Assembly: GCA_050948825.1 (NCBI GenBank)
Contig: JBMNEO010000005.1
Coordinates: forward strand, 100,432 to 164,431
Reading direction: 5' to 3'
Length of the DNA: 64,000 nucleotides
From: Dethiobacteria bacterium
GTDB lineage: Bacteria; Bacillota; Dethiobacteria; DTU022; UBA8154
Under the pieces are notes generated by a model. The model searched no databases, was not told where the DNA came from, and saw only the letters and a list, made by a program, of their open reading frames with translations. This document shows, one piece after another, positions 44,106-62,447 of the stretch (within the stretch, counting starts at the first letter, position 1; each line of letters opens with the position of its first letter). Made by a program: the position numbers and the translations under genes.

Positions 44106-45422
44106 TTAACTGGGAAACGGGGGGACTACACCATAAATAAGCGGAAGTTCTTCCACCGTTTCATCGCTAATAGCAAAAGCATTAATTAAGTCTTTGCAAG
44201 CAGCCTGAAGGAGGTCTTCATTATTGCCGTGGATATGGGCTAAAACATCCCCTGCAAGCACCTGGTTCCCAACTTTCTGGTTCAATACAACCCCTACAGA
44301 GGGATCTATCTCTTCCCCCTTGTAAGATCTTCCCGCACCGAGAAGGGCTGCCGCCTTGCCCACCTTTTTCGTGTCAATTTCCGAAATAAAGCCCGCTTTT
44401 GGCGCCTCGATTACTTCAACGAATTTGGCCTGTGGCAATAAGGCTGGATCATCCACACATTGGGCGTCTCCTCCCTGGCAACTGATCATCTGTTTAAACT
44501 TTTCCAGCGCTGCCCCGTTTTTTAACAGTTTGCGGAGTTCAGCCTGACCCTCTTCCGGGTTTCTTACCTTGCCGGCAAGCGCAAGCATATATCCGCCGAG
44601 AACGATACAGAGTGTTTCCGCATCAGCAGGGCCTTCGCCTTTTAAAATACTGATTGCCTCCTTCACCTCCAGGGCGTTTCCAACGGCAAAACCCAGAGGT
44701 TGATTCATATCCGTAACAACTGATACAATTCGCCTGCCCATTTCTTTTCCTATACGGAACATCGTCTCCGCAAGGTAAAACGCCTCTTCCCTGGTCTTCA
44801 TAAAGGAGCCCTGCCCGGTTTTGACATCCAGTAAGATAGCACCGGCCCCGGAGGCAATTTTTTTGCTCATAATGGATGCAGCAATCAGTGAAGTATTTTC
44901 GACTGTTCCTGTGACATCCCGCAGGGCATAGAGTTTCTTATCCGCGGGAGTCATTCTCTCCGTTTGGGCCATTATCGCCAGATCGTTTTCTTTAATCAGC
45001 TCGATAAACCTTTCCAGGGAAAGTTCTGCGCTAAAACCCGGTATGCTCTCCAGTTTATCGATCGTCCCTCCGGTAAAACCCAATCCTCTTCCGGAGACTT
45101 TGGCCACGGGAACCTCTGCAGCAGCTACCAGCGGGGCCAGCGCAAGGGTTGTTTTATCCCCTACCCCGCCGCTGCTATGTTTATCGGCTACCAGTTTCCC
45201 CAGGGAGGAAAAATCAAGCGTCTCCCCCGATTCAGCCAGGGCAGCAGTAAGCGCAGCGGTTTCCTTTGGGCTGAGACCCTGAAAGAAGACAGCCATTAAA
45301 AATGCGGCCATTTGATATTCAGGAATCAAGCCCTTGTTATACTTGTCAATCAGAAAAAATATCTCTTCCGCAGAAAGGCTTTGACCGTCCCTTTTTCTAA
45401 TAATAAGATCTAACGCCCTCAT
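44106..45422 (-). CDS. pdp: Pyrimidine-nucleoside (thymidine) phosphorylase
   Basis: Start MRALDLIIRKRDG…; …DKHSSGGVGDKTTLALAP…. Confidence 0.85.
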   Translation of the reverse strand: MRALDLIIRKRDGQSLSAEEIFFLIDKYNKGLIPEYQMAAFLMAVFFQGLSPKETAALTAALAESGETLDFSSLGKLVADKHSSGGVGDKTTLALAPLVAAAEVPVAKVSGRGLGFTGGTIDKLESIPGFSAELSLERFIELIKENDLAIMAQTERMTPADKKLYALRDVTGTVENTSLIAASIMSKKIASGAGAILLDVKTGQGSFMKTREEAFYLAETMFRIGKEMGRRIVSVVTDMNQPLGFAVGNALEVKEAISILKGEGPADAETLCIVLGGYMLALAGKVRNPEEGQAELRKLLKNGAALEKFKQMISCQGGDAQCVDDPALLPQAKFVEVIEAPKAGFISEIDTKKVGKAAALLGAGRSYKGEEIDPSVGVVLNQKVGNQVLAGDVLAHIHGNNEDLLQAACKDLINAFAISDETVEELPLIYGVVPPFPS

Positions 45423-46613
45423 CCCCGATCCTCTCCTCTTATGAGCAATTTTCCGGCAAAGCTCTGACCGTCCTTTGTTAATTTTCCACATAATAGCTCT
45501 GCCACCGTAGCCCCCAGGTCAGCAAAGCTTTCCCTGGTACCAAGGTTTCCCGGAGTGATCTGATGCCCGTATATAAGCAGCGGTACATATTCTCTGGTAT
45601 GATCCGTCCCTTTAAAAGTTGGATCACAGCCGTGATCGGCGGTTATTACCAGCATATCATCGTCATTTAAACGTTTCATAACTTTTCCTAAAAAACGATC
45701 AAAAATTTCCAGGGCGGCTGCATATCCTTCAACATCGTTTCTATGTCCATAAAGCATATCAAAATCAATTAAATTAGCCCACAATAACCCGTCAAAATTT
45801 TCATCGAGTGCAAAGGAAACGGCTTCCATAATGCTATCATTATCCGAGCCGGGAAGATGACGAGTAACCCCTTTTCCAGAAAAGATATCCATTACTTTGC
45901 CGACAACCCATACCTGCCTTCCATTATTTTGCACCAGATCAAGCAAAGTAGGAGTCAAAAGGAACCAGAGAAAAATCCTTTCTTTCTTTGAGGCGGTAGA
46001 AACTGCCCGGCTTACCCTCGAATGGTCTGGCGATTACCCTGCCTACGGCATGGTTTCCTACAAAAATATTTCTACGTGCCAGGATACACCACTCATACAG
46101 GGTTTCTAATGGAATAATTTTCGTGTGCGCCGCTATTTGAAAAACGCTGTCCGCTGAAGTATAAACGATGGGAAAACCTGTCCGCAGATGTTCCTCCCCT
46201 AGTTTATTAATGATCTCGGTCCCTGAAGCGGCGATATTCCCCAGGGTCTTGCGCCCGATCATATTTTCAAAAGGGCGGATAATTTCGGCGGGAAAACCTT
46301 GCGGGTAAAGGGGAAAAGGGGTTTTCAGGACCAATCCGGCCAGTTCCCAGTGTCCTGAAATCGTGTCTTTGCCAGGGGAAAGCTCAGCCATTTTACCGTA
46401 AGCTCCAAGCAAGTTGTCCACAGGTCCCCTGTGGCTATTATTGTCTAAGATTTTACCCAGTCCCAGGGAAATGAGATTTTCAATCTTCAGCTCCTTTTTA
46501 TGCAGAACATGTCCCAGGGTGTTGCTTCCTGCATCGTTATATTCTTCAGCATCCGGCAGAGCCCCAACTCCTGCACCGTCCAGTACTAGAATAAATGTCC
46601 TGTTTATTGAAAT
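45419..46613 (-). pseudogene. deoB: Phosphopentomutase DeoB with an internal frameshift (about 45940-45950) and no canonical start codon
   Basis: Middle ORF (…[14 protein letters not shown]…[14 protein letters not shown]…[11 protein letters not shown]…) and C-terminal ORF (TPTLLDLV…ITADHGCDPTFKGTDHTREYVPLLIYG) sit in different frames. The N-terminus reads [11 protein letters not shown] with ATA where the conserved Met is expected, and an ATT lies 7 nt after GGGGG. Confidence 0.6.
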
Positions 46614-46685: not shown

Positions 46686-47573
46686 TTAGGCGCGGGGATG
46701 TGTCTGGTTATAAATTTCTTTTATTTTTTTCCTGGTAATCTGGGTGTATATTTGTGTGGTTGAGATATCTGCATGACCAAGCATCTCCTGGACAGAGCGA
46801 AGGTCTGCTCCATTTTCGAGCAGATGCGTTGCAAATGAATGACGCAGTGTATGAGGGGTAATCTCCGCGTTTATCCCTGTTCTCAAAGCGTATTTTTTCA
46901 ATATTTTCCAGAAACCCTGGCGGGTTAACCGTTTACCATGCTGGTTTATAAAAAGCGCTTTTTCATCCCTTTGTTTGAGCAGCTTTAACCTTCCGTTTTG
47001 AAGATATTCCTGAAGGCTCTTTATCGCTACAGAACCAAGCGGTACAATCCTCTCCTTATTACCTTTGCCGTCACATTTCAAAAAACCCATTTTCAGGTTA
47101 ACGTTATCCAGATTCAAAGAAACCAGTTCTGAAACACGTATTCCTGTGGCATACAGCAACTCCAACATCGCTTTGTCCCTCATACCGATGTTTCCCTTTG
47201 GCTGTGGCTGCTCAAGCAGCAGTTCAATATCTTTAAACGATAAAACAGTAGGCAACCTTTTTTCTGCTCTTGGAGATTCAAGCTCTCCGGCAGGATTTTC
47301 CTGGATTATTTGTTCCTGCAGAAGATATTGATAGAAGGAACGGATCGAAGCTAAATTCCTTGTCAAAGTAGAAACGGCCAGTCCTTTTTGCTTTTGCTCA
47401 GCTAAATACTCCAGAATTATTTTTTTTGAGGTTTCGTTGAAATCCCTTACCTCCTGACGATTTAAAAACTGTATATACTTTTTCAAATCTCGTTGATAAG
47501 ATTCCAGAGTATTTTCCGCAAGTCCTTTTTCTACCGAAAGGAAAAAAACGAAATCCTTTAAAATCCTTTCCAT
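46686..47573 (-). CDS. xerD: Site-specific tyrosine recombinase XerD
   Basis: 295 aa; C-terminal R…HxxR…Y catalytic region (…HTLRHSFATHLLENGADLRSVQEMLGHADISTTQIY). Confidence 0.85.
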   Translation of the reverse strand: MERILKDFVFFLSVEKGLAENTLESYQRDLKKYIQFLNRQEVRDFNETSKKIILEYLAEQKQKGLAVSTLTRNLASIRSFYQYLLQEQIIQENPAGELESPRAEKRLPTVLSFKDIELLLEQPQPKGNIGMRDKAMLELLYATGIRVSELVSLNLDNVNLKMGFLKCDGKGNKERIVPLGSVAIKSLQEYLQNGRLKLLKQRDEKALFINQHGKRLTRQGFWKILKKYALRTGINAEITPHTLRHSFATHLLENGADLRSVQEMLGHADISTTQIYTQITRKKIKEIYNQTHPRA

Positions 47574-47752
47574 CCAAGGTTATCCCCTTTAACTAAAAAG
47601 CAGCAATTTTAATAAGTTATTCCACACATTTTGCAAAAACCCTTTTTTCAATGTATTGATCGATCAAATTATTAACAGCGAAAGACAGCACAATTTGCCA
47701 CAGGCAACGTTAACAAATACAAAACCTTTACCCCTGTAGCTTATGCGGGAAG

Positions 47753-48394
47753 TTATATTATGTTAATCACAAGCTCCATAAAAACAGGTGTTACATAGGC
47801 TTCAACCAGACCGCCTAATAATTCAAAAATCAGTACCATAAACATCATAATACAGTACTGTTGGAAATACTGCCTCCTGTTGTTTGCATGTTTTTTAGCT
47901 AAACGGCCTTTTACATTTAAAATTGAAAAGGTCATCGCTGTAGCCCCTGCAACAAGGTAACCAGGGACCATAATTATATTATGCGGCAACACGGCGGCTA
48001 AACAAAAAACAATTCCTTTCAGCGAATAATGCCTTACCATAAATCCAACGGTAAAACCGATGGCAAACCCCTTAATAAGGAGCAAAAATAAAATAAACGG
48101 GAAACCCATCCAGAGCAAGCCCAGCAGCCATAGAACCGATAATAGCAGGATATTTTTTTGATAAGACGTTTTTAATATTTCCAGCGGCTGCAAGATAACA
48201 TCCGCATCTTTTTTTAAGCCTTCAAAAAAATGGCCCATTGCCGTACCCAGCTCTATTACCTGGCTCTCCTGCAAAAAACCGAGCAAAATCGGCCCTGCGA
48301 TAACCCCGGCAAGAAAAAATGCTGTAACAACAGTATATATACCCAGGTTTTCCCTGATATATTCTAAAATATCTCTTTGGAAGCGCTTTAACAT
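47753..48394 (-). CDS. spoIIM: Stage II sporulation protein M
   Basis: 213 aa membrane protein; KGFAIGFTVGFMV, LPHNIIMVPGYLVAG, IEAYVTPVFME align with B. subtilis SpoIIM. Confidence 0.8.
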   Translation of the reverse strand: MLKRFQRDILEYIRENLGIYTVVTAFFLAGVIAGPILLGFLQESQVIELGTAMGHFFEGLKKDADVILQPLEILKTSYQKNILLLSVLWLLGLLWMGFPFILFLLLIKGFAIGFTVGFMVRHYSLKGIVFCLAAVLPHNIIMVPGYLVAGATAMTFSILNVKGRLAKKHANNRRQYFQQYCIMMFMVLIFELLGGLVEAYVTPVFMELVINII

Positions 48395-48485
48395 AAGAAC
48401 CTCTCAGGGGTTTGTCCTTCTATACTGCTTAATAATATGTTCTCTTGAAAGAGAATATGTTAAAGAACTAAGGCAGGACCCAGTA

Positions 48486-49598
48486 TTATTTATTAGCCAT
48501 TTTTTTCCTGAGCAATTTATCTGTAAGTAAAGCAGCTGTTGCTGCGGCAGCAAAAAATGCGGGGTCTTTTCCGATACCTCTTCCCATTGTATGCAAATCA
48601 TAACCCTTATTTTTGAGAAAGCGCAATAACCCGGTGCTTTTTATAACAGTAACACTATGTTTTTTAAGCAAGCCATTCATTTTCAATTGCTGAATTAGAA
48701 GCAACATTTTTTTTCTATCAAAGGAGGGTAATGGCAGGCAAGCTTTGCAAGAAGAGATTTCTCCAAGTACGGTCAGCGTATGGTGGCTGAATCCAAAATG
48801 CCTCGCCCTGCTATCACTGAAGCTTATCCTGGGTATAAGGATCGGCAGCCCTCCCAGCTTACAGATCCGGTCAATATGCTCCCCCTGTTCTATACCGCCA
48901 AAGCCGTAACGTGTTGAAGTCCCAACGACACCGGGCCCCGGTATAACGACAATTACCTCTGCACCGAGCTCTTCTCTGGCAGCCATCAGGGCAGTATAGA
49001 TATTAATCGTTTCCAGGTCCCCTCCGAAGGCATGGCCGCAGGTTACCGTGCCCGCAAGGCAAGCATCGCTTTTTAAACGGTGCACCGTATCGCTGAGGTA
49101 AAGAGGCAGCGCTGCGCTATCGGTCATGATATATGCTATCCTGCACCCTGGATTTAACTCCTTCAGCGTCAGGATAAAAGGGGCCAGCATGCTGTGCAGC
49201 TCACCAATTACAACCGGCACATTCTTCAAACCCTGATATTTTTCTGTTGCCAGAGCAGGATTTTTATCCGTCAGAAGTTCTTCATAAACCTGAACTTTAA
49301 GCTGCAGCGGGGAGTAACGTAACTTTATGATATGGCCTCCGGGCGATAAAGTTTTATTACCGGTGGCCTCATTGGCAATAACGAAATGGTACCCTCCGCT
49401 TCCCAACCCAAGCTTCATGGCGGTTATATTTAAAATAACCTTATGTCCTGGTAAGGCCGTTCCGGTTAGAAGGGGATAATTTATGGCTTTTTCACTTATT
49501 TCTCCCCTGCATACCTTTAGACATTGTATTCCTTCCCTTGACCAGAGAATTTTATCTACTATACCCTCTCCGGTTTCAATCAATTCAACCTCTCCCAT
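48486..49598 (-). CDS. DUF3866 family protein
   Basis: 370 aa; family assignment from memory. Confidence 0.4.
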   Translation of the reverse strand: MGEVELIETGEGIVDKILWSREGIQCLKVCRGEISEKAINYPLLTGTALPGHKVILNITAMKLGLGSGGYHFVIANEATGNKTLSPGGHIIKLRYSPLQLKVQVYEELLTDKNPALATEKYQGLKNVPVVIGELHSMLAPFILTLKELNPGCRIAYIMTDSAALPLYLSDTVHRLKSDACLAGTVTCGHAFGGDLETINIYTALMAAREELGAEVIVVIPGPGVVGTSTRYGFGGIEQGEHIDRICKLGGLPILIPRISFSDSRARHFGFSHHTLTVLGEISSCKACLPLPSFDRKKMLLLIQQLKMNGLLKKHSVTVIKSTGLLRFLKNKGYDLHTMGRGIGKDPAFFAAAATAALLTDKLLRKKMANK

Positions 49599-50424
49599 TC
49601 GTTCGGTTTAGGCGGTAAAAAAGCACTTTTTTTTCCAGGAGCCTGCTGAGAGAAAATTTTTCTAAATACCAGTGCAGGAATATTAATATAAAGCTGATTA
49701 CAAGCAAATATTCCGCTGATAAATTAATCATTAAGTAAAAGCCCAGCACTCCTCCCAGTAAATAAGCACCTGCGTCACCAAGCATAATGCGTGTTTTCGT
49801 TTCCCAGAACAAATAGACATAAAGCGCGCTCCAGAGTGAAAAAAGCATGGGAAAGGGGCCTTTAAAAAGCATCAGCAATAGCGATAAAACAAAAAAAACC
49901 TTTGCCGACCTTGCCGGTCTGGTATCCAGGAGATTAAAGATGTTGGAAAAAAGTGCCAGAAAAAGCCCTTTTAGGATCCATACAGGCCAGGAATAACCGC
50001 CTACTGTAAAAGCGGCGAGTACGAACCCCATTGTTCCCCCTCCCACAGCTTTATATATACCGGTGGAAATACCTTCTCCCCTCAACATTTTAAACAGGTG
50101 CCCGCGGAAACCTTTGCATTCCTTTTCGCCAAAGAAATCATCCACAGCTCCCAGCAGAGTAATCCCTCCGAAATAGAGCAGCGCAAGCCCTCCGGGAATC
50201 AGCGGGCGGGAAGGGTAGAAGTAATCTGGACTGCAATAGTATAAAAACAGGAAGGAGAAAAAATAAGCCGCCAGCAAAATGATACCTCCCGCTGTTACAA
50301 CCTTTATTCCCTCATAGTTTAAAGTAAGCGCTTTTTCTTTCCTTCCCATGCGCTTAATAAAAAAAGGGGTCAAAAAATAAGCTGTCAACCCCGGAATAAG
50401 GATTATGCCAGTTATGCTCTCCAT
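49585..50424 (-). CDS. Polytopic membrane protein, possibly a glycosyltransferase family 4 (MraY/WecA-like) short form
   Basis: 279 aa, about 8 TM; weak MraY-like features. Confidence 0.35.
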   Translation of the reverse strand: MESITGIILIPGLTAYFLTPFFIKRMGRKEKALTLNYEGIKVVTAGGIILLAAYFFSFLFLYYCSPDYFYPSRPLIPGGLALLYFGGITLLGAVDDFFGEKECKGFRGHLFKMLRGEGISTGIYKAVGGGTMGFVLAAFTVGGYSWPVWILKGLFLALFSNIFNLLDTRPARSAKVFFVLSLLLMLFKGPFPMLFSLWSALYVYLFWETKTRIMLGDAGAYLLGGVLGFYLMINLSAEYLLVISFILIFLHWYLEKFSLSRLLEKKVLFYRLNRTNGRG

Positions 50425-50467
50425 ACTCTTAGTAAGAGCTCCTTTTACAGATTTTCAAAATACCTTT

Positions 50468-51133
50468 TTAAAAATTATAATGTAAGAGTAACTTCATCAC
50501 CGCAAAAAACTGGGATCCCCGGTGAAGATAAGAATGAAAATCGTTTCCCCTCATACGGTGGCTCATCTCAACCGGAATCTCTTTTACCCTGAAGCCTTTC
50601 CTGATACTTTCAATTGTCAGCGCTACTTCTGCGGCAAAACCTTCAGCCTTGAAATCTATCGCTTCCCAGAGAGAACGCTTGATTACGCGCTGGCCAGAGA
50701 GGGGAGCAAGCATCTCCTGCCCCGTATATAACCGAATGCTCCAGAAAGCGAGAGCTTTTACCAGCCCCAGCCCCGCGGCTTTTCCTGAAGAATTAAATCG
50801 GGCAACGGTCATATCCGCTTCGTCCGCCGCGACAGGCAGTATAAGCTTGCGCACTTCCAGGGCCGAATCTCTGAGATCGGCGTCTACAAAGGCCAGCAAT
50901 TCCCCCCTGGAAATACCGGCACCGTCTCGCAATGCCTGGCTTTTTCCCCTGTTTGTACTGTTCCGGCAAACAACAGCCCCGGCGCTTAAAGCTTCAAGAG
51001 CTGTCTTATCCGACGAGCCATCATCGACAACAATCACCTCATCGATCTCAGGCAGCTTGAACAAAGCCTCCACCGTTTTACCAACCCAGCCTTCTTCGTT
51101 ATAAGCCGGAATAATCGCGGAAATTAACAACAC
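50468..51133 (-). CDS. Glycosyltransferase family 2
   Basis: 221 aa; …ISAIIPAYNEEGWVGKTVEAL…VVDDGSSDKT…AFVDADL (DxD). Confidence 0.7.
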   Translation of the reverse strand: MLLISAIIPAYNEEGWVGKTVEALFKLPEIDEVIVVDDGSSDKTALEALSAGAVVCRNSTNRGKSQALRDGAGISRGELLAFVDADLRDSALEVRKLILPVAADEADMTVARFNSSGKAAGLGLVKALAFWSIRLYTGQEMLAPLSGQRVIKRSLWEAIDFKAEGFAAEVALTIESIRKGFRVKEIPVEMSHRMRGNDFHSYLHRGSQFFAVMKLLLHYNF

Positions 51134-51188
51134 TGTATCTCCCTTTGGCAGTGTATACAGCAGTTAGGCCCTGGATCCCCGGCTTCCC

Positions 51189-52034
51189 TTAAGCACTGCT
51201 GCAACTTTTATTTATTAACTCCAGCAGTTTTAATCTGCTGAAAAAAGTCCCTGCACCATGCCTGGCAGAGGAAGCCGGATTATTTTCTGTCCCGGCAATA
51301 CTACCATTAATGTCGGTAATGCCGGTAATAAAATCCTGCCAGATAATAACCTGCTCCGATCCAACCTTTTCCACAAGATGATCAATAAGCTGCCCGGGGA
51401 AGCTGCCGGCGATAAATACTTCCCGCCCGCATTCATTCATCGGGGGTATGCTATTTTCGTTTGGAGCCTTTTTACCGGAGATGATCTCCAGCAACTCTTT
51501 TTCACACAGGATATCCAGGATACTGTCTGCGGCCATCTCCTGCTCTGCTCCGGGAGGCAGGGCCAACTCATTTCCTAGAACATTATACAGTTCAGCTTTA
51601 TCGTTTATAATAAACTCTTCACCCGCATAATTATGCAGTAAAACAGGTTCTTCTCCGCCAAATCCTTCATCAAAAATATAAATCTGATAAGCAGCTCCGG
51701 TTAACTCCAAAAAATCAAGCAGTCCCCCGGGAATTTCTTCATGAACAATTACTTTAACAGCCCGGTTTACGAGTTTATCTTCCAGGAGCAAAGGGGTTAA
51801 ATAATCTTCCTCCAGGGTTTCCCAGTGTAAAAGCTCTTCTTCCAGAAGAGTTAACGACGTAAAGTAAGTATTAACCTCATCTTTATAACGCACTATTTCA
51901 CTTCTTAAACTGTCAATAACAGCAATTTGATTGTGAATTAGCGCATTTTCTCCCATGGACGCACCGATCAGAATTCCGATTCCCAGGGCTAAAAAAACAG
52001 CGATTAGTGAAAAAAAATGATTTTGCTGGTCCAT
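51189..52034 (-). CDS. MctB/SteB-like membrane-anchored protein (annotated 'copper transporter' family, DUF3186)
   Basis: 281 aa; N-terminal TM HFFSLIAVFLALGIGILIG; sits beside a SteA-like gene as in actinobacterial steA-steB. Confidence 0.45.
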   Translation of the reverse strand: MDQQNHFFSLIAVFLALGIGILIGASMGENALIHNQIAVIDSLRSEIVRYKDEVNTYFTSLTLLEEELLHWETLEEDYLTPLLLEDKLVNRAVKVIVHEEIPGGLLDFLELTGAAYQIYIFDEGFGGEEPVLLHNYAGEEFIINDKAELYNVLGNELALPPGAEQEMAADSILDILCEKELLEIISGKKAPNENSIPPMNECGREVFIAGSFPGQLIDHLVEKVGSEQVIIWQDFITGITDINGSIAGTENNPASSARHGAGTFFSRLKLLELINKSCSSA

Positions 52035-52068
52035 TAAAACACGCCTTTATAGTTAAGTAAAATAAAAT

Positions 52069-53214
52069 TTAATGAAATCCGAACCTCCAGGAAAAAAGGT
52101 ATAAAAAATGACGGACAAGCGGAGAGAAAGAGGCCAGCACAACGATTGGGAAAAGTGCTGAAGCAACTAAAATTGATAAATATTGCCATCTGATACCACC
52201 ATGGTACAGTTGGGCAAGGCCTCTGGCATCCACCAGTTTATGGCCCATTTTTAATCTTACCAGGAAAGTTGAAGCCATACCCTTCCTTCCCTTTTCTAAA
52301 AAATCAAGCATATGGGAATGCGAGCCCACGGCCACAATAAGCTCGGCTTTACTTTCATAAGCCAATAGAAATGCCAGATCTTCGCTGGTTCCCGGTGCCG
52401 CAATTATTTTTGCTTCTAAGCCCATGCGGGAAATGCGCTCCATCCCGGGGGCTCTGCCATCCGGATATGCGTGAACGATTATCTCCCCGGCTTTTTTTAG
52501 CGATCTATCCTCAACACTGTCCATGTCTCCGATAATAAGGTGGGGCCTCAGCCCCATCATGCAAAGGGCATCCCCACCTCCGTCAACACCGATAAGCACC
52601 GGCTGAACTTCCCTGATATACGAACGTATCGCTTGCAGATCTTTCTTATAATTTTTACCCCTAACAACAATTAACACATGTTTGCCGGCCAGCCTGGTTT
52701 TGATATCCGGAATATCCAGGTTTTTTAGGATTAGATCTTTTTCCCTTCTGGCATATTCAAGAGTATTTTGTACAAATAAATCAAGCTGCTTTTTTAAATT
52801 TTTTTCTGCTTGATCCAGCTTTTTTTTAAGAAATTGCTTGCTTATTACTCTGCCCTGCCCCAGCATTTCCTCCCTGCAATAAATAGTGCTTCCTGCAATT
52901 GTGACAATCTCTCCCTCGCGTAGAAGTGAATATAGTTTATCCCCAACATTATCCAAAACATAAATACCCTGATCGAGCAATACTTTTGTTCCAAGCGCGG
53001 GATATTCGCCGTTAAAAGTGTTATCAACATTGATTACCGCCTTAACCCCTCTTTCTGCAAGTTCCTGCCCTGCCAATTCATCAAGATTTTTATGTGCGAT
53101 TAAAGCAATATCACCCGGCTGCAGCCTTTTACAGAGGTTCTTCGTTCTGCGGTCCTTTTTTAGAATTCCCTTATAGATCTTTTCCATAAAACCACCTGAA
53201 ACAATTATTATCAT
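52069..53214 (-). CDS. SteA-like protein (thiamine-pyrophosphokinase-like fold, putative cytokinetic ring protein family)
   Basis: 381 aa; directly downstream of spo0A; C-terminal TM segment. Confidence 0.45.
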   Translation of the reverse strand: MIIIVSGGFMEKIYKGILKKDRRTKNLCKRLQPGDIALIAHKNLDELAGQELAERGVKAVINVDNTFNGEYPALGTKVLLDQGIYVLDNVGDKLYSLLREGEIVTIAGSTIYCREEMLGQGRVISKQFLKKKLDQAEKNLKKQLDLFVQNTLEYARREKDLILKNLDIPDIKTRLAGKHVLIVVRGKNYKKDLQAIRSYIREVQPVLIGVDGGGDALCMMGLRPHLIIGDMDSVEDRSLKKAGEIIVHAYPDGRAPGMERISRMGLEAKIIAAPGTSEDLAFLLAYESKAELIVAVGSHSHMLDFLEKGRKGMASTFLVRLKMGHKLVDARGLAQLYHGGIRWQYLSILVASALFPIVVLASFSPLVRHFLYLFSWRFGFH

Positions 53215-53250
53215 TAATTTAACCTTATTTATTAAATTTAAACAAAAAAA

Positions 53251-53280
53251 GGCGTTTAAACGCCTTTTTTGTTCAACGGC
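53251..53280. terminator. Bidirectional terminator downstream of spo0A
   Basis: aaaaaaa-ggcgtttaaacgcc-ttttttg. Confidence 0.6.
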
Positions 53281-53353: not shown

Positions 53354-54151
53354 CTATAGAACCTTGTAGTCGTACTTTCTATTTTTTAAACGAATCCTAT
53401 CGGCCACAAGGGCAATAAACTCAGAATTTGTTGGTTTGCCCTTTTCTGTATTAATTGTATAGCCAAAGAATTTTTTTATCGTATCAATATTATTTCTGGC
53501 CCAGGCAACTTCAATAGCATGGCGGATTGCCCGTTCCACCCTGCTCGGTGTAGTTTCATATTTTTGAGCAATGCGCGGGTAGAGAATTTTTGTAATTGAA
53601 CCAAGCAGCTCAATCTCCTCAGCTACCATAGAGATAGCATCGCGCAGATAAAGATAACCCTTTATATGTGCCGGAATACCAATTTCATGAATAATCTGAG
53701 TAATTTCCTCAATAAAGCCATTATCCTTCCTGATATTAATATTCTTTACCGGATTAACCTGTATCTTCCCGCTTCCGGCAGGTACTTTGCCCAGCTGTCT
53801 AATTCTTTCAGCCAGAACCTCCAAATTAAACGGTTTAAGTATGTAATAAGATGCCCCCAGTTCAACCGCCCTTTGGGTTATATTTTCATGTCCAAAAGCA
53901 GTCAACATGATCACTTTCGGTTTCGGGGAGAGCTCCATTTTATTTAATTCTTCCAGCACTCCGATCCCGTCCAGGTGAGGCATTATTATATCAAGTAGAA
54001 TAATATCAGGATTTTTTTCTTTTACCAGTTCCAATACCTCTTTGCCATTAAAAGCATTGCCAATAATATCCATATCCTCTTCTTTACTTAAATACTCCGA
54101 CAAAAGTTCATTAAATTCCCTATTATCATCTGCGATTAAAATTTTAAACAT
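53354..54151 (-). CDS. spo0A: Stage 0 sporulation protein A (master response regulator)
   Basis: Start [21 protein letters not shown] (GGGGG 7 nt upstream); receiver domain; C-terminal Spo0A DNA-binding domain (…[45 protein letters not shown]…). Confidence 0.9.
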
Positions 54152-54196
54152 TTTAAAGCCCCCTTCAATTAACTGAATTATTCTTTTCATATAATT

Positions 54197-54221
54197 ATTC
54201 GACATTAAAAAGACAGTTCCT
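54197..54221 (-). promoter_or_regulatory. Candidate sigma-H-type (Ps-like) spo0A promoter with an overlapping 0A box
   Basis: Minus strand: aAGGAAct, 17 nt, GAAT; TGTCGAA (Spo0A box consensus) overlaps the -10. Confidence 0.35.
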
Positions 54222-54263
54222 TCTATTAAGTAATATTATTATTTATTTTTTATGAATAATAAT

Positions 54264-55577
54264 TTAAGAAACAGGAATTATATTTGTTTCTTTCACCATC
54301 CATTCAGCATAAATCCCGTATCCTCTCGTAGGGTCATTGACAAAAACATGGGTTACAGCTCCAATCAGGCAGCCGTTCTGGATAATCGGGCTGCCGCTCA
54401 TACCCTGCACGATACCTCCTGTTAACTCCAGTAATTCTTCGTCAACAATGCGTAAAATAATTCCTTTATCACCAGGCGTGTTTTTATTTACCGCCCTTTC
54501 GATTTCAATTTCAAAACTTTGTATTTTATTCCCCTCCACAACGGTAAGGAGCTCTGCCGGCCCTGGTTCAACTTGAAAGGCAAGGCCAAGCGGGATAGGA
54601 TCGGGATATGGTGTGACATACTCCCCAACATTGTGCAACTCACCGTATATCCCAAATTTACAGTTTTTCCTGATACTTCCCAAAATGTCCTTTCCTTCTC
54701 GAAAAATCCCCGCTTTTTCACCGGGACGACCTTTTCGTGCCGTTTTAATATTCACTATATCAGCTCTTACAATCATACCGTCGTTAATTTCCAGGGCTGC
54801 GTTGGTATCCAGGTCATTAATGATATGGCCCAGCGCACCATAGAATTGGTTCTCAGGATCATAAAAAGTTAATGTCCCCACACCGGCAGCGGTGTCCCTG
54901 ATATATAAACCGATGCGTCTTTCCCCGGTTTCCGGGCAGGGGTAAGGGACGACATTTATAATAACTGTTTCTTTTTGTCGTTTAACGGTAAACTTCAAAT
55001 CCCCTTTTGCAGATTCACTTCTGATTACATCGGCTGCCATATCAATATCATCTATTGCTATACCGTTCACTTTAATAATTACATCTTCAATAAGAATCCC
55101 GGCTTCCTCAGCAGGTGAAAATTTATTCTTTCCGGTTTCCAGATAAAAATATCCTACAGCAAGCACTCCTTTTTCATGAAGTTTAATCCCGATGGAATGG
55201 CCGCCCGGGATTAACTCCATCTCAGGCAAAACACTTACAGTGAGCTGCTTGATTGGAATAAGCCCTTTAAAAAGGCTTAATTCCAGGTTTACATTTCCCC
55301 GGGAAACACCCCGCAGCGAGATATCATTCTGAAATCCCAGCAGGCTTATTTCATCATCGCCCACAGGAGAGCCGTTGATATTAAGAATATCTGCTCGATC
55401 AGCTTTGATATAAAGGTCGAGGGGGAATTTAACAGAGTAGGAGTGTTCCTGCCCTTCAAAAAGCCGGATATTATCCTCGAGGTGAATTCTTATTTCCAGC
55501 GGCAGAAACAATAAAAAAAGCACTGTAAAGACCGTTATTACCATTAGTATATTTCTTTTTCTGTGAAGGTTGCTCAT
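54264..55577 (-). CDS. spoIVB: SpoIVB peptidase (S55)
   Basis: PDZ domain plus catalytic GGIVQGMSGSPIIQNGCLIGAVTHVFVNDPTRGYGIYAEWM; spoIVB-spo0A arrangement as in Bacillus. Confidence 0.85.
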   Translation of the reverse strand: MSNLHRKRNILMVITVFTVLFLLFLPLEIRIHLEDNIRLFEGQEHSYSVKFPLDLYIKADRADILNINGSPVGDDEISLLGFQNDISLRGVSRGNVNLELSLFKGLIPIKQLTVSVLPEMELIPGGHSIGIKLHEKGVLAVGYFYLETGKNKFSPAEEAGILIEDVIIKVNGIAIDDIDMAADVIRSESAKGDLKFTVKRQKETVIINVVPYPCPETGERRIGLYIRDTAAGVGTLTFYDPENQFYGALGHIINDLDTNAALEINDGMIVRADIVNIKTARKGRPGEKAGIFREGKDILGSIRKNCKFGIYGELHNVGEYVTPYPDPIPLGLAFQVEPGPAELLTVVEGNKIQSFEIEIERAVNKNTPGDKGIILRIVDEELLELTGGIVQGMSGSPIIQNGCLIGAVTHVFVNDPTRGYGIYAEWMVKETNIIPVS

Positions 55578-55813
55578 CCTAATCCTCCCGATAACAATGC
55601 AATTTTTTTTTGCAATTTTTTTTAAGAACAATTTTAAATTGCCTCCGGGAGTTTTTTTTATGCTCCAACTGTTTACATAACCTTAATGTTTTATTTGGCA
55701 TTAATAACAATAAAAAACCTCATTTATTTTTTAAATGAGGTTTTGCGGTATAAAAATTTTAATTTTACGGGGAAGAAAAGATTATTTCTCCCCATATTCC
55801 GGCAATCTCGCGC

Positions 55814-57496
55814 TCATCCGCGTGATTTCTTTAATAGTTCCTCTGCATGGCGCCTGGTTATTTCACCGGTATCGTTACCGCTGAGCATGCGGGCAATTTC
55901 AAGGACCCTGTTTTCACCCTCAAGATAATTCACGCGTGTTGCCGTGCGACCTTCAATTATTTCTTTGTATATATAATATTGGTGATCAGCCGCGCTTGCA
56001 ATATGGACATTGTGTGTTACCGAAATAATCTGGTGCTTTTTGCTTAAATTTACCATTTTTTCAGCTACTTTCTGGATAGTCTTTCCTCCAATACCGCTGT
56101 CAATTTCATCAAAAATTAACACAGGGATATGATCCTGCTCGGCAAGGATGCTTTTTAATGCGAGCATTACCCTGGCCATTTCTCCGGCAGATATTATTCG
56201 CGCCAGGGGTTTTAAAGGTTCTCCGGGATTCGCGGAAAATAAAAATTCCAGCTCTTCTTTCCCCCTGTGGTCCGGGGTATCCTTGGGGGTAAAACCGACA
56301 GAAAAACGGGCACTTTCCATCCCCAGTTCTTGCAGGGCTTCTGCCACCTGCAGCTCGAGTTTTTTGGCTGTTTCTTTCCTCTTGAACGACAACTGTTCGG
56401 CAAAGGTCTCAATTTCAACCTGCAGTTCCTGCAGCTGTTCTTCCAAAAGCAGCGATTCTTCCTCGCTGCTTTCCAAAACACTTATTTCATGACGGCACTG
56501 TTTTTCAAAAGCAAGAATCTCTTCGACGGTTGCTCCGTATTTGGATTTTAAACGACGGTAGAGTTCCAGCCGGTTTTCTATTTCTATTTTTTCTTCGGGG
56601 CAGTATACAAGCCCCTCCAGATATGAGTAAAGATCATGTCCCAGTTCTGATAACCCTGCACTGATCTCCTGCAAGACTTGAATAAAAGGGGTAAGAGCGG
56701 CATCAACCTTAACCAGGGAAGAAAACTCTTCTGTAAAACTATTAATCGTATCCAAAACAGCCGGCAAGTCATGATCATTACCATAGATTTGGTTATATGC
56801 CCTGTTGGCTGTAAAGAGCAGTTTCTCCATATTATCCAGGACCAATAGCCTTTCCCTTAAGCTGTTCTCTTCATCTGCAGCGATAGAAGCATCGTGAATC
56901 TCATCCCTTTGAAAACGGAGCATTTCAAGCCGGCGCTCCCGCTCCCGGGGGGAGATACCGCGTTCGTTCAGTTTTTTCTTGATCTCCTGCCTGCGATCAA
57001 TGAAACCGATCATTTGCTGTTTGACCTTCAAGAGTTCCTCATCCCCGAATTCATCCAAAAGGTACAAATGCTGTTCGGGCCTTAAAAGGGATTGGTGGCT
57101 GTGCTGGCCGTGAAGATCAACCAGGATAGTGCCCAGCTCTTTTAAGGCTGTCAGGGGAACAATACGCCCGTTTACCCGGCAGGTATTCCGACCGCTGCGT
57201 GATATCTCCCTGGTAACGATCAGCTCCTTTTCAAAATCAGGGCCGTATGCTTCCAGTATTTTTTTTAATTGGAGGTCAGCTTCAGAGACTTCAAAAACCG
57301 CTTCGATAATTGCTTTGCTGCATCCAGTTCTCACCTGCTCGCTGGCTGCCCTCTCACCCAGGATAAGATTAATTGCTCCAATCAGAATTGATTTCCCGGC
57401 CCCTGTTTCCCCTGTTAAGACATTCATGCCGGGGAAAAATTCTATCGATAGATCATCGATCAGGGCAAAATCTCGCAGATGTAAAAATGAGAGCAT
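55814..57496 (-). CDS. recN: DNA repair protein RecN
   Basis: Start MLSFLHLRDFALIDDLSIEFFPGMNVLTGETGAGKSILI; SMC-like coiled coil; C-terminal signature. Confidence 0.9.
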   Translation of the reverse strand: MLSFLHLRDFALIDDLSIEFFPGMNVLTGETGAGKSILIGAINLILGERAASEQVRTGCSKAIIEAVFEVSEADLQLKKILEAYGPDFEKELIVTREISRSGRNTCRVNGRIVPLTALKELGTILVDLHGQHSHQSLLRPEQHLYLLDEFGDEELLKVKQQMIGFIDRRQEIKKKLNERGISPRERERRLEMLRFQRDEIHDASIAADEENSLRERLLVLDNMEKLLFTANRAYNQIYGNDHDLPAVLDTINSFTEEFSSLVKVDAALTPFIQVLQEISAGLSELGHDLYSYLEGLVYCPEEKIEIENRLELYRRLKSKYGATVEEILAFEKQCRHEISVLESSEEESLLLEEQLQELQVEIETFAEQLSFKRKETAKKLELQVAEALQELGMESARFSVGFTPKDTPDHRGKEELEFLFSANPGEPLKPLARIISAGEMARVMLALKSILAEQDHIPVLIFDEIDSGIGGKTIQKVAEKMVNLSKKHQIISVTHNVHIASAADHQYYIYKEIIEGRTATRVNYLEGENRVLEIARMLSGNDTGEITRRHAEELLKKSRG

Positions 57497-57572
57497 CTGA
57501 AACACCTTCCCAAAAAAATTCAAAACTATTAAAGCAGATCTCCACCTGGAACAGTAATCCCTTAGCCAGATT

Positions 57573-58421
57573 CTAAATTAGTTTATCGTGTAACAGCTTA
57601 TAAAAATTATTTTCTTCAAAGGTAATTACTTTTGTTACACACTCCGCCCGCCTGATATGAATAGAATCGTTATATTTTAAGGCAAAGCCTTCCTGGCCAT
57701 CCAGCGTCAAAAAAATATCGGCACCCTTTGTGGCTACAGTTAAAGATACAACGTCATTTTGATCGACAATTACAGAACGCTGATAGAGCAGATGGGGGCA
57801 AATAGGAGTAACTACAAGTACATTAAGAAACGGGTTTACAACCGGGCCTCCTGCAGACAAGGAATAACCGGTAGATCCTGTCGGGCTTGCAATGATCACC
57901 CCATCTCCCGGATAACTCTCTAAAAAATCGTGATTAATATATGTATCGATTCTAATAATCCTGGAGAACGGCCCCCTGGAGACAATGACATCATTCAATG
58001 AAATAGATGAAGCGAAATACCGATCGTCTCTAATCACTTCGGTATGAAGCATCATCCGTTCACCAAGCCGATAGTCCCCTTTAACAAGTTTTTCCATAAA
58101 ATAGCTTAGCTTGTCGATTTCGATTTCGGCCAGAAAACCCTTATGGCCTAGATTTATTCCTAAAATGGGAAGTTTTGTACAGGCCAGCTCCCTGGAGGCC
58201 CTTAAAAAAGTGCCGTCACCTCCTACAACAATCGCCAGATCAACTATTTGCGGCCATTTTTTGATTTCATCTATTGGTGAAGCCACGTGCAAAAGGGGAT
58301 CTTTCTCCGGTGCAACATATACAGGGATGCCATGGCTGCTGAAAAAGCTTTTGATACCAGTGACAACTTCCGGCACCCTTTTTTTTTGCCAGTTGGGTAT
58401 TACTCCGATACCTTTTAACAA
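57573..58421 (-). CDS. nadK: NAD(+) kinase
   Basis: 282 aa; GGDGTFL, NDV…RG motifs. Confidence 0.85.
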   Translation of the reverse strand: MLKGIGVIPNWQKKRVPEVVTGIKSFFSSHGIPVYVAPEKDPLLHVASPIDEIKKWPQIVDLAIVVGGDGTFLRASRELACTKLPILGINLGHKGFLAEIEIDKLSYFMEKLVKGDYRLGERMMLHTEVIRDDRYFASSISLNDVIVSRGPFSRIIRIDTYINHDFLESYPGDGVIIASPTGSTGYSLSAGGPVVNPFLNVLVVTPICPHLLYQRSVIVDQNDVVSLTVATKGADIFLTLDGQEGFALKYNDSIHIRRAECVTKVITFEENNFYKLLHDKLI

Positions 58422-58449
58422 CGCGCCTTTCCCCTTCCCTGTAAATTTC

Positions 58450-59289
58450 TCAACTCTTCTTCAGGCAGGAATGGGCCTCCAGAACTACTTCTCTAATAAT
58501 ACACTGCAGCTCTCCAAACAGTTCCTTACCCGGCAGGACCGTTTGGCCACTATTTCGCAAAAGATATAATAGAAATTCTATGTTGCCTTTCGGCCCTTTC
58601 AGTGGAGAAAAGGTGATTCCTCCCACAAGATAGGAAAGCTCTAAAGAAAGTATAGCGATCTTTTCCAGGACTTCTTCATGAACCTCTTTAGATCTAACCA
58701 CTCCTTTTTTTCCAACCTGAGAGCGGAGAGCTTCAAACTGGGGTTTAAGCAGGCAGATTACTTCGTTGATGCCCAGCGCGGCAACAACCGGCAGTACTTT
58801 TTCCAGTGAAATAAAAGAAACGTCAATTACCGCCAGTTGCGGCACAGGTGATAAGTCTTCTTTTTTTAAAAAACGGACATTAAAACGTTCCATATTTACA
58901 ACCCTGGGATGGTTGCGTAATACCCAGGCCAGCTGGCCATAACCGACATCAAGCGCATACACTTTCTCTGCTCCGTTATCTAAAGCGCACTGGGTAAAAC
59001 CTCCCGTGGAAGCGCCGATATCAAGAACGATTTTCCCCTTCATATCGATTCCAAACTCATCCAGCGCTTTTTTAAGTTTCAATCCTCCCCTGCTGACGTA
59101 CGGGTTTGCAGGCTTATGCAGATCAATATTTGCTAAGATCGGGGTAAGTGATCCCGGTTTATCGCTTTTTTTCCCGTTTACAAAGACATTGCCGGCCATA
59201 ATTTCGGCTCTGGCGCGGCTTCGCGTAGGGAAAATATTTTTTTCTACCAGAAGAACATCAAGACGTTTTTTTTCTTTCTCCCCGGTCAT
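58450..59289 (-). CDS. tlyA: TlyA family rRNA 2'-O-methyltransferase
   Basis: 279 aa; S4 domain plus FtsJ-like MTase (…VLDIGASTGGFTQCAL…). Confidence 0.8.
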   Translation of the reverse strand: MTGEKEKKRLDVLLVEKNIFPTRSRARAEIMAGNVFVNGKKSDKPGSLTPILANIDLHKPANPYVSRGGLKLKKALDEFGIDMKGKIVLDIGASTGGFTQCALDNGAEKVYALDVGYGQLAWVLRNHPRVVNMERFNVRFLKKEDLSPVPQLAVIDVSFISLEKVLPVVAALGINEVICLLKPQFEALRSQVGKKGVVRSKEVHEEVLEKIAILSLELSYLVGGITFSPLKGPKGNIEFLLYLLRNSGQTVLPGKELFGELQCIIREVVLEAHSCLKKS

Positions 59290-61808: not shown

Positions 61809-61829
61809 GGTTCCTCTTTTCTGACCCCG

Positions 61830-62441: not shown

Positions 62442-62447
62442 ATTAAA

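What the first reader, a model, noticed from the sequence alone, without database searches (positions are those of the whole stretch)
48486..53214. Conserved spo0A-proximal module: SteA-like, MctB/SteB-like, GT2, GT4-like and DUF3866 genes mirror the actinobacterial recN-steA-steB neighbourhood
Directly downstream of spo0A lie a cytoplasmic TPK-fold protein resembling SteA and a membrane-anchored protein of the MctB/SteB ('copper transporter', DUF3186) family. Two glycosyltransferases and a DUF3866 protein follow. Upstream are recN, nadK and tlyA, as in the Mycobacterium tlyA-ppnK-recN-Rv1697-mctB cluster. In Corynebacterineae, SteA and SteB act in cell-separation/divisome control. A Firmicute version embedded between spo0A and spoIIM hints at a role in asymmetric division or engulfment-associated wall remodelling. 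That role would be undescribed.
Basis: inference. Interest (0 to 1): 0.5.

Follow-up and report, generated by a model that had tools for sequence, protein, structure and literature searches.

The report
SteAB cell-envelope operon beside spo0A
The five genes after spo0A are a real, very widely conserved cell-envelope operon (SteA, SteB, two sugar transferases and DUF3866), but it appears to be an ancient housekeeping module that is essential for normal growth in a related bacterium, and nothing here ties it specifically to sporulation.

Summary
On the minus strand, 48486-53214 encodes:
- SteA (NCBIfam NF040608, 493 bits);
- a soluble GT2;
- a short MraY/WecA-type transferase (Pfam Glycos_transf_4, not CAZy GT4);
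- DUF3866.

Synteny is strong. SteB follows steA in 79 of 80 genome loci. GT2 and the MraY-like gene follow in all untruncated Firmicute loci. Starting from the MraY-like gene, 39 of 40 metagenome loci have steA upstream.

The sporulation reading is not supported:
- A strong terminator separates spo0A from steA.
- Actinobacteria, Armatimonadota and asporogenous Peptostreptococcus canis have recN directly next to steA.
- Tumebacillus carries the four-gene unit away from spo0A.
- In C. difficile the orthologous cluster is essential for vegetative growth (0 to 2 transposon hits), while spo0A and spoIVB are dispensable.

Adjacency to spo0A is best explained as spoIVB-spo0A inserted into an old recN-steA...xerD block.

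SteAB downstream of spo0A in Clostridia was already published in mBio 2026. What I did not find in the literature is the near-obligate coupling of SteAB to the two transferases. That coupling suggests a lipid-linked sugar arm of the SteAB system.

The parts
53245..53270 (-). Intrinsic terminator after spo0A and before steA (AAAAAAGGCGTTTAAACGCCTTTTTT plus a T tail)
   Evidence: Terminator scan, sequence. Fold gives dG -17.4 kcal/mol, z -5.3, with 0 of 200 shuffles as stable.
52069..53214 (-). steA: cytoplasmic TPK-fold nucleotide-binding protein with a C-terminal membrane anchor. The likely true start is the ATG at 53187.
   Evidence: NF040608 493 bits; PF12555 at residues 331-374; TPK_catalytic sub-threshold. 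9hmy_A E=8e-61. GDMDS and VDGGGD motifs invariant in 14 homologues. RBS and start.
51189..52034 (-). steB (MctB family): N-terminal TM helix, a long extracytoplasmic helix, and a small alpha/beta domain. The C-terminal half is divergent in Dethiobacteria.
50468..51133 (-). Soluble GT-A (GT2) glycosyltransferase of 221 aa
   Evidence: PF00535 85.7 bits. Sub-threshold hits to AglJ, GpgS and PpgS. Nearest structures are GpgS/MpgS at 48 bits and DPMS at 33 bits.
49585..50424 (-). Short (279 aa) polytopic MraY/WecA-superfamily (PNPT) protein, called 'GT4L' in this report
   Evidence: PF00953 21.7 bits, below the cutoff. Alignment A5 has invariant D95 D96, N161 N164 D167, and M214 G216 D217. The profile hits MraY 8g01/5jnq/4j72 at E about 5e-8. 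25 of 34 members hit PF00953.
48486..49598 (-). DUF3866 protein. Its start overlaps the end of the MraY-like gene by 14 nt.
53354..55631 (-). Context: spoIVB (54264-55631) and spo0A (53354-54205). These are interpreted as the lineage-specific insertion between recN and steA.
   Evidence: TIGR02860 442 bits and TIGR02875 394 bits. Both are absent between recN and steA in L012, L034, L050-L080 and L087.
55814..59289 (-). Context: tlyA (58450-59289), nadK (57573-58421) and recN (55814-57523), the ancestral upstream block
   Evidence: ORFs. Conserved order in 80 loci.
46686..48394 (-). Context: spoIIM (47753-48394) and xerD (46686-47573), downstream of the operon after a 91-nt spacer
   Evidence: TIGR02831 152.7 bits. 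ORFs. Spacer sequence.

Best explanation
The region is a five-gene operon: steA, steB, GT2, an MraY-like transferase and DUF3866. It is transcribed separately from spo0A and belongs to an ancient housekeeping cell-envelope and division module. It is not a sporulation locus.

Shown here:
- SteA and SteB are true homologues of the actinobacterial SteAB pair, by sequence and by fold.
- They are followed almost invariably by a GT2 and a short MraY/WecA-type transferase with intact catalytic Asp motifs.
- The block sits in an old tlyA-nadK-recN-steA-steB...(NUDIX)-xerD arrangement shared with Actinobacteria and Armatimonadota.

Inferred from phyletic pattern:
- Endospore-forming Firmicutes inserted spoIVB-spo0A between recN and steA, and spoIIM before xerD.

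From the literature:
- SteA is a membrane-anchored cytoplasmic dimer that binds UDP/GDP-type nucleotides.
- SteB is its extracytoplasmic coiled-coil partner. SteB positions and activates a peptidoglycan endopeptidase for daughter-cell separation.
- The C. difficile orthologues of all five genes are essential in vegetative growth. Knock-down gives short, swollen, chaining cells.

Inferred mechanism for this locus:
- SteA-SteB form a transmembrane complex that controls septal wall remodelling or cell separation during ordinary growth.
- The GT2 and the MraY-like enzyme build a polyprenyl-phosphate-linked sugar at the same membrane site. This reaction is functionally coupled to SteAB, for example by supplying or consuming the UDP/GDP-type ligand of SteA.
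- DUF3866 is a cytoplasmic accessory enzyme of unknown chemistry and is coupled less tightly.
For: Identity:
- Family and structure matches.

Operon structure:
- Gaps between genes are 34, 55 and 43 nt, and the last pair overlaps by 14 nt.
- A terminator lies between spo0A and steA.
- There is no TGTCGAA 0A box upstream of steA.
- A hairpin plus T-run occurs in 22 of 35 spo0A-steA spacers of relatives, against 15 of 175 coding controls.

Coupling of the genes:
- SteB follows steA in 79 of 80 loci.
- GT2 is present in 51 of 51 and the MraY-like gene in 50 of 50 untruncated Firmicute loci. DUF3866 is present in 36 of 46.
- Reciprocally, 39 of 40 metagenome loci found with the MraY-like gene have steA upstream.
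- In Tumebacillus avium the four-gene unit lies between MoeB/MoaE and GH18 genes, away from spo0A.

Ancestral synteny:
- recN lies directly next to steA in 20 of 22 actinobacterial loci, in Armatimonadota L034, and in Peptostreptococcus canis L012.
- L136 reads tlyA-nadK-recN-steA-steB-GT4L-pyrG-M20-DUF3866-NUDIX-xerD.

Vegetative function:
- In C. difficile R20291, genes 1053-1057 have 0/130, 0/117, 0/76, 0/111 and 2/122 TA sites hit. spo0A has 85/99 sites hit and is non-essential (PMC12548448 supplement).
- The knock-down phenotype is reported.
- A Clostridioides locus with the same gene sizes and Pfam content was recovered.

SteAB mechanism and UDP/GDP binding:
- PMC12977500.
Against: - No experiment exists for this organism.
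- In 45 of 46 Firmicute loci with a recognisable upstream gene, spo0A is the nearest upstream core gene. In a few lineages the spacer is only 40-60 nt and has no detectable terminator, so read-through from spo0A is possible there.
- No RipA-like partner hydrolase was identified for Firmicutes.
- The C-terminal half of this SteB is divergent. Its Pfam match covers only residues 2-114, and the model has only moderate confidence.
- The MraY-like protein lacks the last roughly 60-80 residues of MraY, so enzymatic competence is inferred from motifs only.
- The nearest solved relatives of the GT2 act on a soluble acceptor (GpgS), so a lipid-linked product is not established.
- DUF3866 is absent from the locus in 10 of 46 Firmicute loci. 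Elsewhere it is separated from the other genes by pyrG and M20 genes, so its membership of the functional unit is weaker.
Confidence: 0.65

Rival explanations
1. Sporulation-specific module. SteAB and the transferases act at the asymmetric septum or during engulfment. Their position between spo0A and spoIIM would reflect co-regulation with sporulation. This is the reading of the first-stage reader and of the mBio 2026 authors.
For: spo0A is the nearest upstream core gene in 45 of 54 Firmicute loci, and spoIIM or xerD follow in many. Some lineages have 40-60 nt spo0A-steA spacers with no detectable terminator. The suggestion is printed in PMC12977500.
Against: - A terminator follows spo0A here and in 22 of 35 relatives.
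- The module is retained next to recN in asporogenous Peptostreptococcus canis, in Actinobacteria and in Armatimonadota.
- The module lies away from spo0A in Tumebacillus.
- CCA-adding enzyme, RecX (opposite strand) or GlnRS genes lie between spo0A and steA in some lineages.
- The C. difficile orthologues are essential in vegetative culture, while spo0A and spoIVB are not.
- An additional role in sporulation cannot be excluded.
Confidence: 0.12
2. The five genes are only syntenic neighbours inside a very old housekeeping block (recN ... xerD). There is no functional link between SteAB and the transferases or DUF3866.
For: The whole block tlyA-nadK-recN...pyrG...NUDIX-xerD is conserved although its genes have unrelated functions. 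DUF3866 is separated by pyrG and M20 in L053 and L136, and by M20 or YkuD in L023 and L013. It is missing from the locus in 10 of 46 Firmicute loci. L124 has GT2 plus the MraY-like gene without steAB.
Against: - steA-steB-GT2-GT4L occurs as one contiguous unit outside the recN/spo0A block in Tumebacillus.
- 39 of 40 loci found through the MraY-like gene carry steA.
- Spacings are tight, and here GT4L and DUF3866 overlap by 14 nt.
- All five C. difficile genes share the same essentiality, and the four that were targeted share the same knock-down morphology. CRISPRi polarity could contribute to that shared morphology.
Confidence: 0.15
3. The database names are correct. The MctB-family protein is a copper transporter and the SteA-like protein is a thiamine pyrophosphokinase.
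For: Source annotations read 'copper transporter' and 'pyrophosphokinase'. There is a weak TPK_catalytic hit.
Against: - TIGR01378 thi_PPkinase scores 33.8 bits against a cutoff of 76.4, whereas the SteA model scores 493 bits.
- The copper-channel role of MctB is contradicted by the SteB-RipA structures (PMC12977500).
- The original role was proposed for a mycobacterial outer membrane, which Firmicutes lack (my own knowledge).
Confidence: 0.02

Closest known systems
SteA-SteB (Rv1697-Rv1698/MctB; Cg1603-Cg1604) cell-separation regulator of Mycobacteriales
   Same: - SteA: 493 bits to the NCBIfam equivalog, E=8e-61 to the solved core, a conserved GDxDS-type pocket and a C-terminal TM anchor.
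- The genes are adjacent and follow tlyA-nadK-recN.
   Different: - Here the pair is followed by GT2, an MraY-like transferase and DUF3866 in one operon. By my own knowledge of the M. tuberculosis and C. glutamicum gene order, pyrG follows steB there.
- spoIVB-spo0A lie between recN and steA.
- The host has no mycolate envelope, and no RipA-type partner is known.
- The SteB C-terminal half is strongly divergent.
- In C. difficile both genes are essential. In M. tuberculosis only SteA is reported essential.
C. difficile essential cluster cdr20291_1053-1057 (J Bacteriol 2025, PMC12548448)
   Same: Same five families in the same order directly after spoIVB-spo0A and before nudF/xerD, with similar sizes. 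A Clostridioides locus shows 51%, 40%, 28% and 48% identity for SteA, GT2, GT4L and DUF3866, and its SteB scores 216 bits against the SteB profile.
   Different: That paper lists the genes as of unknown function ('pyrophosphokinase', 'exported protein') and does not name SteA or SteB. C. difficile has nudF after DUF3866, whereas here spoIIM follows directly.
MraY / WecA polyprenyl-phosphate N-acetylhexosamine-1-phosphate transferases (PNPT, Pfam PF00953)
   Same: A polytopic membrane protein in which the DD, NxxNxxD and (M/F)xGDxG(S/A) motifs align to those of MraY. The profile E-value to MraY structures is about 5e-8.
   Different: - It is only about 270-300 aa, against 360 for MraY.
- The alignment stops near MraY residue 300, so the C-terminal part is absent.
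- The motif reads NLxDxRPGR rather than NLTDGLDG.
- The window protein is below the Pfam gathering score.
- It forms a distinct clade found almost only next to steAB.
FtsEX-type transmembrane activation of wall hydrolases (FtsEX-PcsB/CwlO/RipC)
   Same: The logic is the same, as argued in PMC12977500. A cytoplasmic nucleotide-binding component is coupled through the membrane to an extracytoplasmic coiled-coil that positions a hydrolase.
   Different: The proteins are unrelated. SteA is TPK-fold, not an ABC ATPase. No hydrolase partner has been identified for Firmicute SteB.

Membership tests
SteA (NCBIfam NF040608) | Full-length match to the equivalog HMM above its cutoff | tested here: met
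   493.3 bits against a cutoff of 150, covering residues 15-374 of 381.
SteA (NCBIfam NF040608) | Homology to the solved SteA cytoplasmic core, with the TPK-like nucleotide pocket motifs conserved | tested here: met
   9hmy_A E=8e-61 over residues 16-337. VDGGGD and GDMDS are invariant in 14 homologues. Ligand binding itself was not tested.
SteA (NCBIfam NF040608) | C-terminal transmembrane anchor (SteA-like_C) | tested here: met
   PF12555 29.3 bits against a cutoff of 26.4, residues 331-374.
SteA (NCBIfam NF040608) | Septal localisation and recruitment of SteB | not testable with these tools
   Needs microscopy or interaction assays. Only the gene adjacency is shown here (79 of 80 loci).
SteB / MctB (Pfam PF11382) | HMM match above the gathering score | tested here: met
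   38.6 bits against a cutoff of 25.6, but only residues 2-114 of 281 align. 35 of 35 proteins in the same slot in other loci match, best E 7.6e-89.
SteB / MctB (Pfam PF11382) | Fold of the extracytoplasmic part: a long helix plus an alpha/beta core | tested here: met
SteB / MctB (Pfam PF11382) | Binds the coiled-coil of a RipA-type NlpC/P60 endopeptidase | not testable with these tools
   No partner is known for Firmicutes, and the window does not cover the whole genome.
GT2 (Pfam PF00535) | GT-A domain match above cutoff | tested here: met
   85.7 bits against a cutoff of 23.3. All specific NCBIfam equivalogs are far below their cutoffs, so no donor or acceptor can be assigned.
MraY/WecA PNPT superfamily (Pfam PF00953) | HMM match above the gathering score | tested here: not met
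   The window protein scores 21.7 bits against a cutoff of 27. 25 of 34 family members match at E<=0.01, best 4.2e-10.
MraY/WecA PNPT superfamily (Pfam PF00953) | Conserved catalytic Asp motifs (DD; NxxNxxD; GDxG) | tested here: met
   D95 D96, N161 N164 D167 and G216 D217 are invariant in 34 sequences and align to the MraY motifs.
MraY/WecA PNPT superfamily (Pfam PF00953) | Complete 10-11 TM architecture including the C-terminal segment of MraY | tested here: inconclusive
   The family is 266-330 aa and the profile alignment ends near MraY residue 300 of 360. I therefore file it as a distinct short clade of the superfamily, not as MraY or WecA.
DUF3866 (Pfam PF12982) | Full-length HMM match | tested here: met
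   391.2 bits, profile positions 1-318 of 318.
Sporulation (Spo0A/sigma-controlled) gene set | Co-transcription with, or regulation by, the sporulation machinery, and restriction to spore formers | tested here: not met
   A terminator follows spo0A. There is no 0A box upstream of steA. The module is present in non-spore-formers and other phyla. It is essential in vegetative C. difficile. Promoter dependence itself was not testable.

The most novel reading that the evidence does not exclude
SteAB may ancestrally be one arm of a four-gene machine. Its other arm, a GT2 plus a short MraY-like phospho-sugar transferase, would make a so-far unidentified polyprenyl-linked sugar. The UDP/GDP-type pocket of SteA would read out or feed this reaction. 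That would couple septal wall hydrolysis and cell separation to a lipid-linked glycan step. The coupling would be essential in Clostridia and would have been lost in Mycobacteriales, where SteAB has been studied.
Probability: 0.3. Interest if true: 0.7.

Novelty: new variant of a known kind. Interest (0 to 1): 0.42.

Why it matters
Two separate literatures meet at this locus. The SteAB field lacks the natural ligand and energy source of SteA, and has studied only the two-gene mycobacterial version. The C. difficile field has a five-gene cluster that is essential, gives a division and shape phenotype, and is listed as of unknown function.

Three results here give a concrete, testable hypothesis for the missing ligand:
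- The two systems are the same.
- SteAB is almost always linked to a GT2 and an MraY-like transferase across Firmicutes, many Actinobacteria and other lineages.
- The link to spo0A is most simply explained as an inherited gene arrangement.

They also point to a set of essential envelope proteins in Clostridia that have no B. subtilis orthologue, which makes them possible narrow-spectrum targets. And they correct the tempting sporulation reading.

Tried and rejected
Searches that found nothing useful:
- Single-sequence phmmer of SteB, the MraY-like protein and DUF3866 against PDB found nothing meaningful.
- A DUF3866 family profile against PDB also found nothing.

My own analyses that failed:
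- My regular expression for the SteB N-terminal motif undercounted. I replaced it with an HMM search.
- My terminator script missed the window's own terminator, because its A-run and T-run are part of the stem. The tool scan and folding show it.

Other dead ends:
- A search for the TGTCGAA 0A box found none near steA, and only chance numbers in the window.
- The preprint version of the C. difficile paper holds no supplements. The journal version does.
- The genes inserted between spo0A and steA in some lineages were checked for wall hydrolases. They are CCA-adding enzyme, RecX, GlnRS and DUF4846.

Readings considered and rejected:
- Copper transporter.
- Thiamine pyrophosphokinase.
- CAZy GT4.

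Full report
**What is there**

All genes between 46.6 and 63.4 kb lie on the minus strand. In the direction of transcription the order is:
- ispA
- OLE RNA and a membrane ORF
- dxs
- tlyA
- nadK
- recN
- spoIVB
- spo0A
- five ORFs at 52069-53214, 51189-52034, 50468-51133, 49585-50424 and 48486-49598
- spoIIM
- xerD

The best SteA homologues come from Dethiobacteria MAGs at 93% identity. NCBI already names them 'putative cytokinetic ring protein SteA'.

**Identity of the five proteins**

1. SteA
   - It scores 493 bits on NCBIfam NF040608 (cutoff 150).
   - It carries the C-terminal SteA-like_C anchor.
   - It aligns to the crystallised SteA core 9hmy_A at E=8e-61.
   - The GDMDS and VDGGGD pocket motifs are invariant among 14 Firmicute homologues.
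   - The thiamine pyrophosphokinase model is far below its cutoff (33.8 against 76.4 bits).
   - The real start is probably the ATG at 53187, preceded by GGTGG. This gives 372 aa, as in most homologues.

2. SteB
   - It passes the Pfam MctB gathering score (38.6 against 25.6 bits), but only over residues 2-114.
   - It has only 37 detectable close relatives.
   - An AF2 model (pLDDT 73) shows a TM helix, a 55-residue helix and a small alpha/beta domain.
   - Foldseek found nothing.

3. GT2
   - It is a 221-aa soluble GT2 (PF00535, 85.7 bits).
   - Its nearest solved relatives are GpgS/MpgS and, more weakly, DPMS.

4. The MraY-like protein ('GT4L')
   - It is not CAZy GT4. It is a weak hit to Pfam Glycos_transf_4, the MraY/WecA family (21.7 bits, below the 27-bit cutoff).
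   - In an alignment of 34 orthologues from the related loci, DD, NxxNLxDxRPGR and MLGDxG are invariant.
   - The profile of that alignment hits MraY structures at E about 5e-8, with these motifs aligned to the MraY catalytic motifs.
   - The family is about 80 residues shorter than MraY.

5. DUF3866
   - It is a full-length member of the family (391 bits).

**Operon structure**

- Gaps inside the cluster are 34, 55 and 43 nt, and the last pair overlaps by 14 nt.
- Between the spo0A stop and steA lies AAAAAAGGCGTTTAAACGCCTTTTTTT. It folds at -17.4 kcal/mol, with z -5.3.
- No 0A box lies upstream of steA.
- In relatives, 22 of 35 spo0A-steA spacers carry a hairpin plus T-run, against 15 of 175 size-matched coding controls.
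- Lineages with 40-60 nt spacers do not carry one.

**Neighbourhood survey**

A scan of one genome per species with a SteA alignment gave 80 loci with 10-kb flanks. I then ran tblastn and HMM searches with the window's proteins.

| Feature | Result |
|---|---|
| SteB-family ORF directly after steA | 79 of 80 loci (the exception is truncated) |
| Slot ORFs scanned with Pfam that hit PF11382 | 35 of 35 |
| Firmicute-type loci (54): nearest upstream core gene | spo0A in 45, recN in 1 |
| Firmicute-type loci: GT2 present | 51 of 51 untruncated |
| Firmicute-type loci: MraY-like gene present | 50 of 50 untruncated |
| Firmicute-type loci: DUF3866 present | 36 of 46 untruncated |
| Actinobacterial loci (22): recN immediately upstream | 20 |
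| Actinobacterial loci: MraY-like gene after steB | 16 of 19 |

The reciprocal test started from the MraY-like gene in metagenome contigs:
- 39 of 40 loci with enough upstream sequence carry steA.
- The one exception, L124, is a GT2 plus MraY-like pair next to an ECF sigma/anti-sigma pair.

**Why the link to spo0A looks historical**

- Loci such as L136 read tlyA-nadK-recN-steA-steB-GT4L-pyrG-M20-DUF3866-NUDIX-xerD, and L053 additionally has GT2. By my own knowledge of the M. tuberculosis gene order, this is a superset of the mycobacterial order tlyA-ppnK-recN-Rv1697-Rv1698-pyrG-NUDIX-xerD.
- Armatimonadota L034 has nadK-recN-steA-steB.
- Peptostreptococcus canis belongs to a non-sporulating genus (my own knowledge). 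It has recN-steA-steB-GT2-GT4L-DUF3866 followed by PNP and YceG genes, with no spoIVB, spo0A or spoIIM.
- Tumebacillus avium carries steA-steB-GT2-GT4L between molybdopterin genes and a GH18 gene.
- In Romboutsia and Terrisporobacter a CCA-adding enzyme gene separates spo0A from steA. In the Natronincolaceae MAG (L055) and Alkaliphilus pronyensis (L078) a RecX gene on the opposite strand does. In L017 several genes do.

The simplest reading is that spoIVB-spo0A, and spoIIM, were inserted into a pre-existing recN-steA...xerD block.

**Literature**

- PMC12977500 (mBio 2026) solved the SteA and SteB-RipA structures.
  - It showed that CgSteA is stabilised by GDP or UDP.
  - It rejected the copper-transport role of MctB.
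  - It states that steA-steB occur in a subset of Bacillota, mainly Clostridia, immediately downstream of spo0A, 'suggesting a possible role' in sporulation.
  - It mentions neither the transferases nor DUF3866.
- PMC12548448 (J Bacteriol 2025; preprint PMC12157513) lists cdr20291_1053-1057 as essential genes of unknown function. The knock-down phenotype is short, swollen, phase-bright, chaining cells.
  - Its Tn-seq table shows 0/130, 0/117, 0/76, 0/111 and 2/122 TA sites hit for the five genes.
  - spoIVB and spo0A (85/99 sites hit), nudF, the following membrane protein and xerD are non-essential.
  - 'No ortholog' in B. subtilis is recorded for 1053 and 1054.
  - The paper does not use the names SteA or SteB.
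- A Clostridioides locus with the same sizes and Pfam content matches the window's proteins.
- I found no paper in the library that links SteAB to the transferases.

**Interpretation**

The observation and the synteny claim are correct. The sporulation inference is not supported, and the idea is not new.

The most likely function is a vegetative envelope and division module. A SteA-SteB transmembrane complex would control wall remodelling, as in Mycobacteriales.

The SteA-SteB pair is coupled to a GT2 and a short MraY-like transferase. These probably act on a polyprenyl-phosphate carrier.

That last step and the role of DUF3866 are inference only. DUF3866 is less tightly linked, and in other lineages it pairs with an M20 peptidase.

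An additional role in sporulation cannot be excluded.

**Limits**

- The genome survey kept the 80 loci most similar to the query out of more than 450, so it is not an unbiased census.
- Taxon labels of MAGs are as deposited, and two 'Desulfovibrio' labels are probably mis-binned Firmicutes.
- No expression or interaction data exist for this organism.

Noticed in passing
window 61864-62447 (-), with ORF 61245-61979 (-): A full-length OLE (Ornate Large Extremophilic) RNA scores 475.6 bits against a gathering score of 50. It lies between ispA and dxs. A 244-aa membrane ORF follows and overlaps the 3' end of the RNA. From memory, this is the position of the OLE-associated protein OapA.
   Followed up: partly
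window 10050-10332 (-) and 10493-10776 (+): Two divergently oriented T-box leaders (108 and 98 bits) sit back to back, each in front of genes on its own strand.
   Followed up: no
window 45419-46421 (-): The phosphopentomutase-like gene downstream of xerD is split into at least two overlapping ORFs in different frames (160 aa and 179 aa). No N-terminal piece of 40 aa or more was found. This is either a frameshifted pseudogene or an assembly error.
   Followed up: partly
L023 13639-15873; L053 15170-17463; L136 8582-10773: An M20-family peptidase gene lies immediately before DUF3866 in Syntrophomonas, in an actinobacterial MAG and in a metagenome contig. In L053 and L136 pyrG comes before the pair; in all three loci a NUDIX gene follows it. 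This suggests an M20-DUF3866 functional pair that is independent of SteAB.
   Followed up: partly
L013 13526-14224: In a Thermoanaerobacterales MAG, an L,D-transpeptidase (YkuD plus PG_binding_1) is inserted between the MraY-like gene and DUF3866. This is a direct peptidoglycan link inside the module.
   Followed up: no
L054 9956-14814 (Tumebacillus avium chromosome): The four-gene unit steA-steB-GT2-GT4L lies away from spo0A and recN, between MoeB/MoaE-MoaD genes and a GH18 glycoside hydrolase. No DUF3866 lies within 10 kb.
   Followed up: partly
L124 5044-6612: This is the only locus found where the GT2 plus MraY-like pair occurs without steA and steB. It is flanked by a methyltransferase gene and an ECF sigma / zf-HC2 anti-sigma pair.
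   Followed up: partly
L056, L061, L062, L072-L076, L080 (about 10630-12080): In several actinobacterial loci the stop-to-stop frame that holds SteB begins about 400 nt before the end of the SteA match. This may reflect the steA-steB gene fusions reported for Nocardioidaceae, or merely stop-poor high-GC DNA.
   Followed up: no
window 51189-52034 versus L001-L004: Dethiobacteria SteB proteins score only 100-181 bits on the family HMM, against about 230-330 bits for most other Firmicutes. They also have a low-confidence, gap-rich C-terminal half (residues 192-202 and 236-259 have pLDDT below 50). The ectodomain is evolving fast in this class.
   Followed up: partly
window 48434-48463 (-): The 91-nt spacer before spoIIM contains ACATATT-N14-CATATTAT. 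From memory, this resembles the sigma-E promoter consensus, and it would give spoIIM its own sporulation promoter separate from the steA operon.
   Followed up: no
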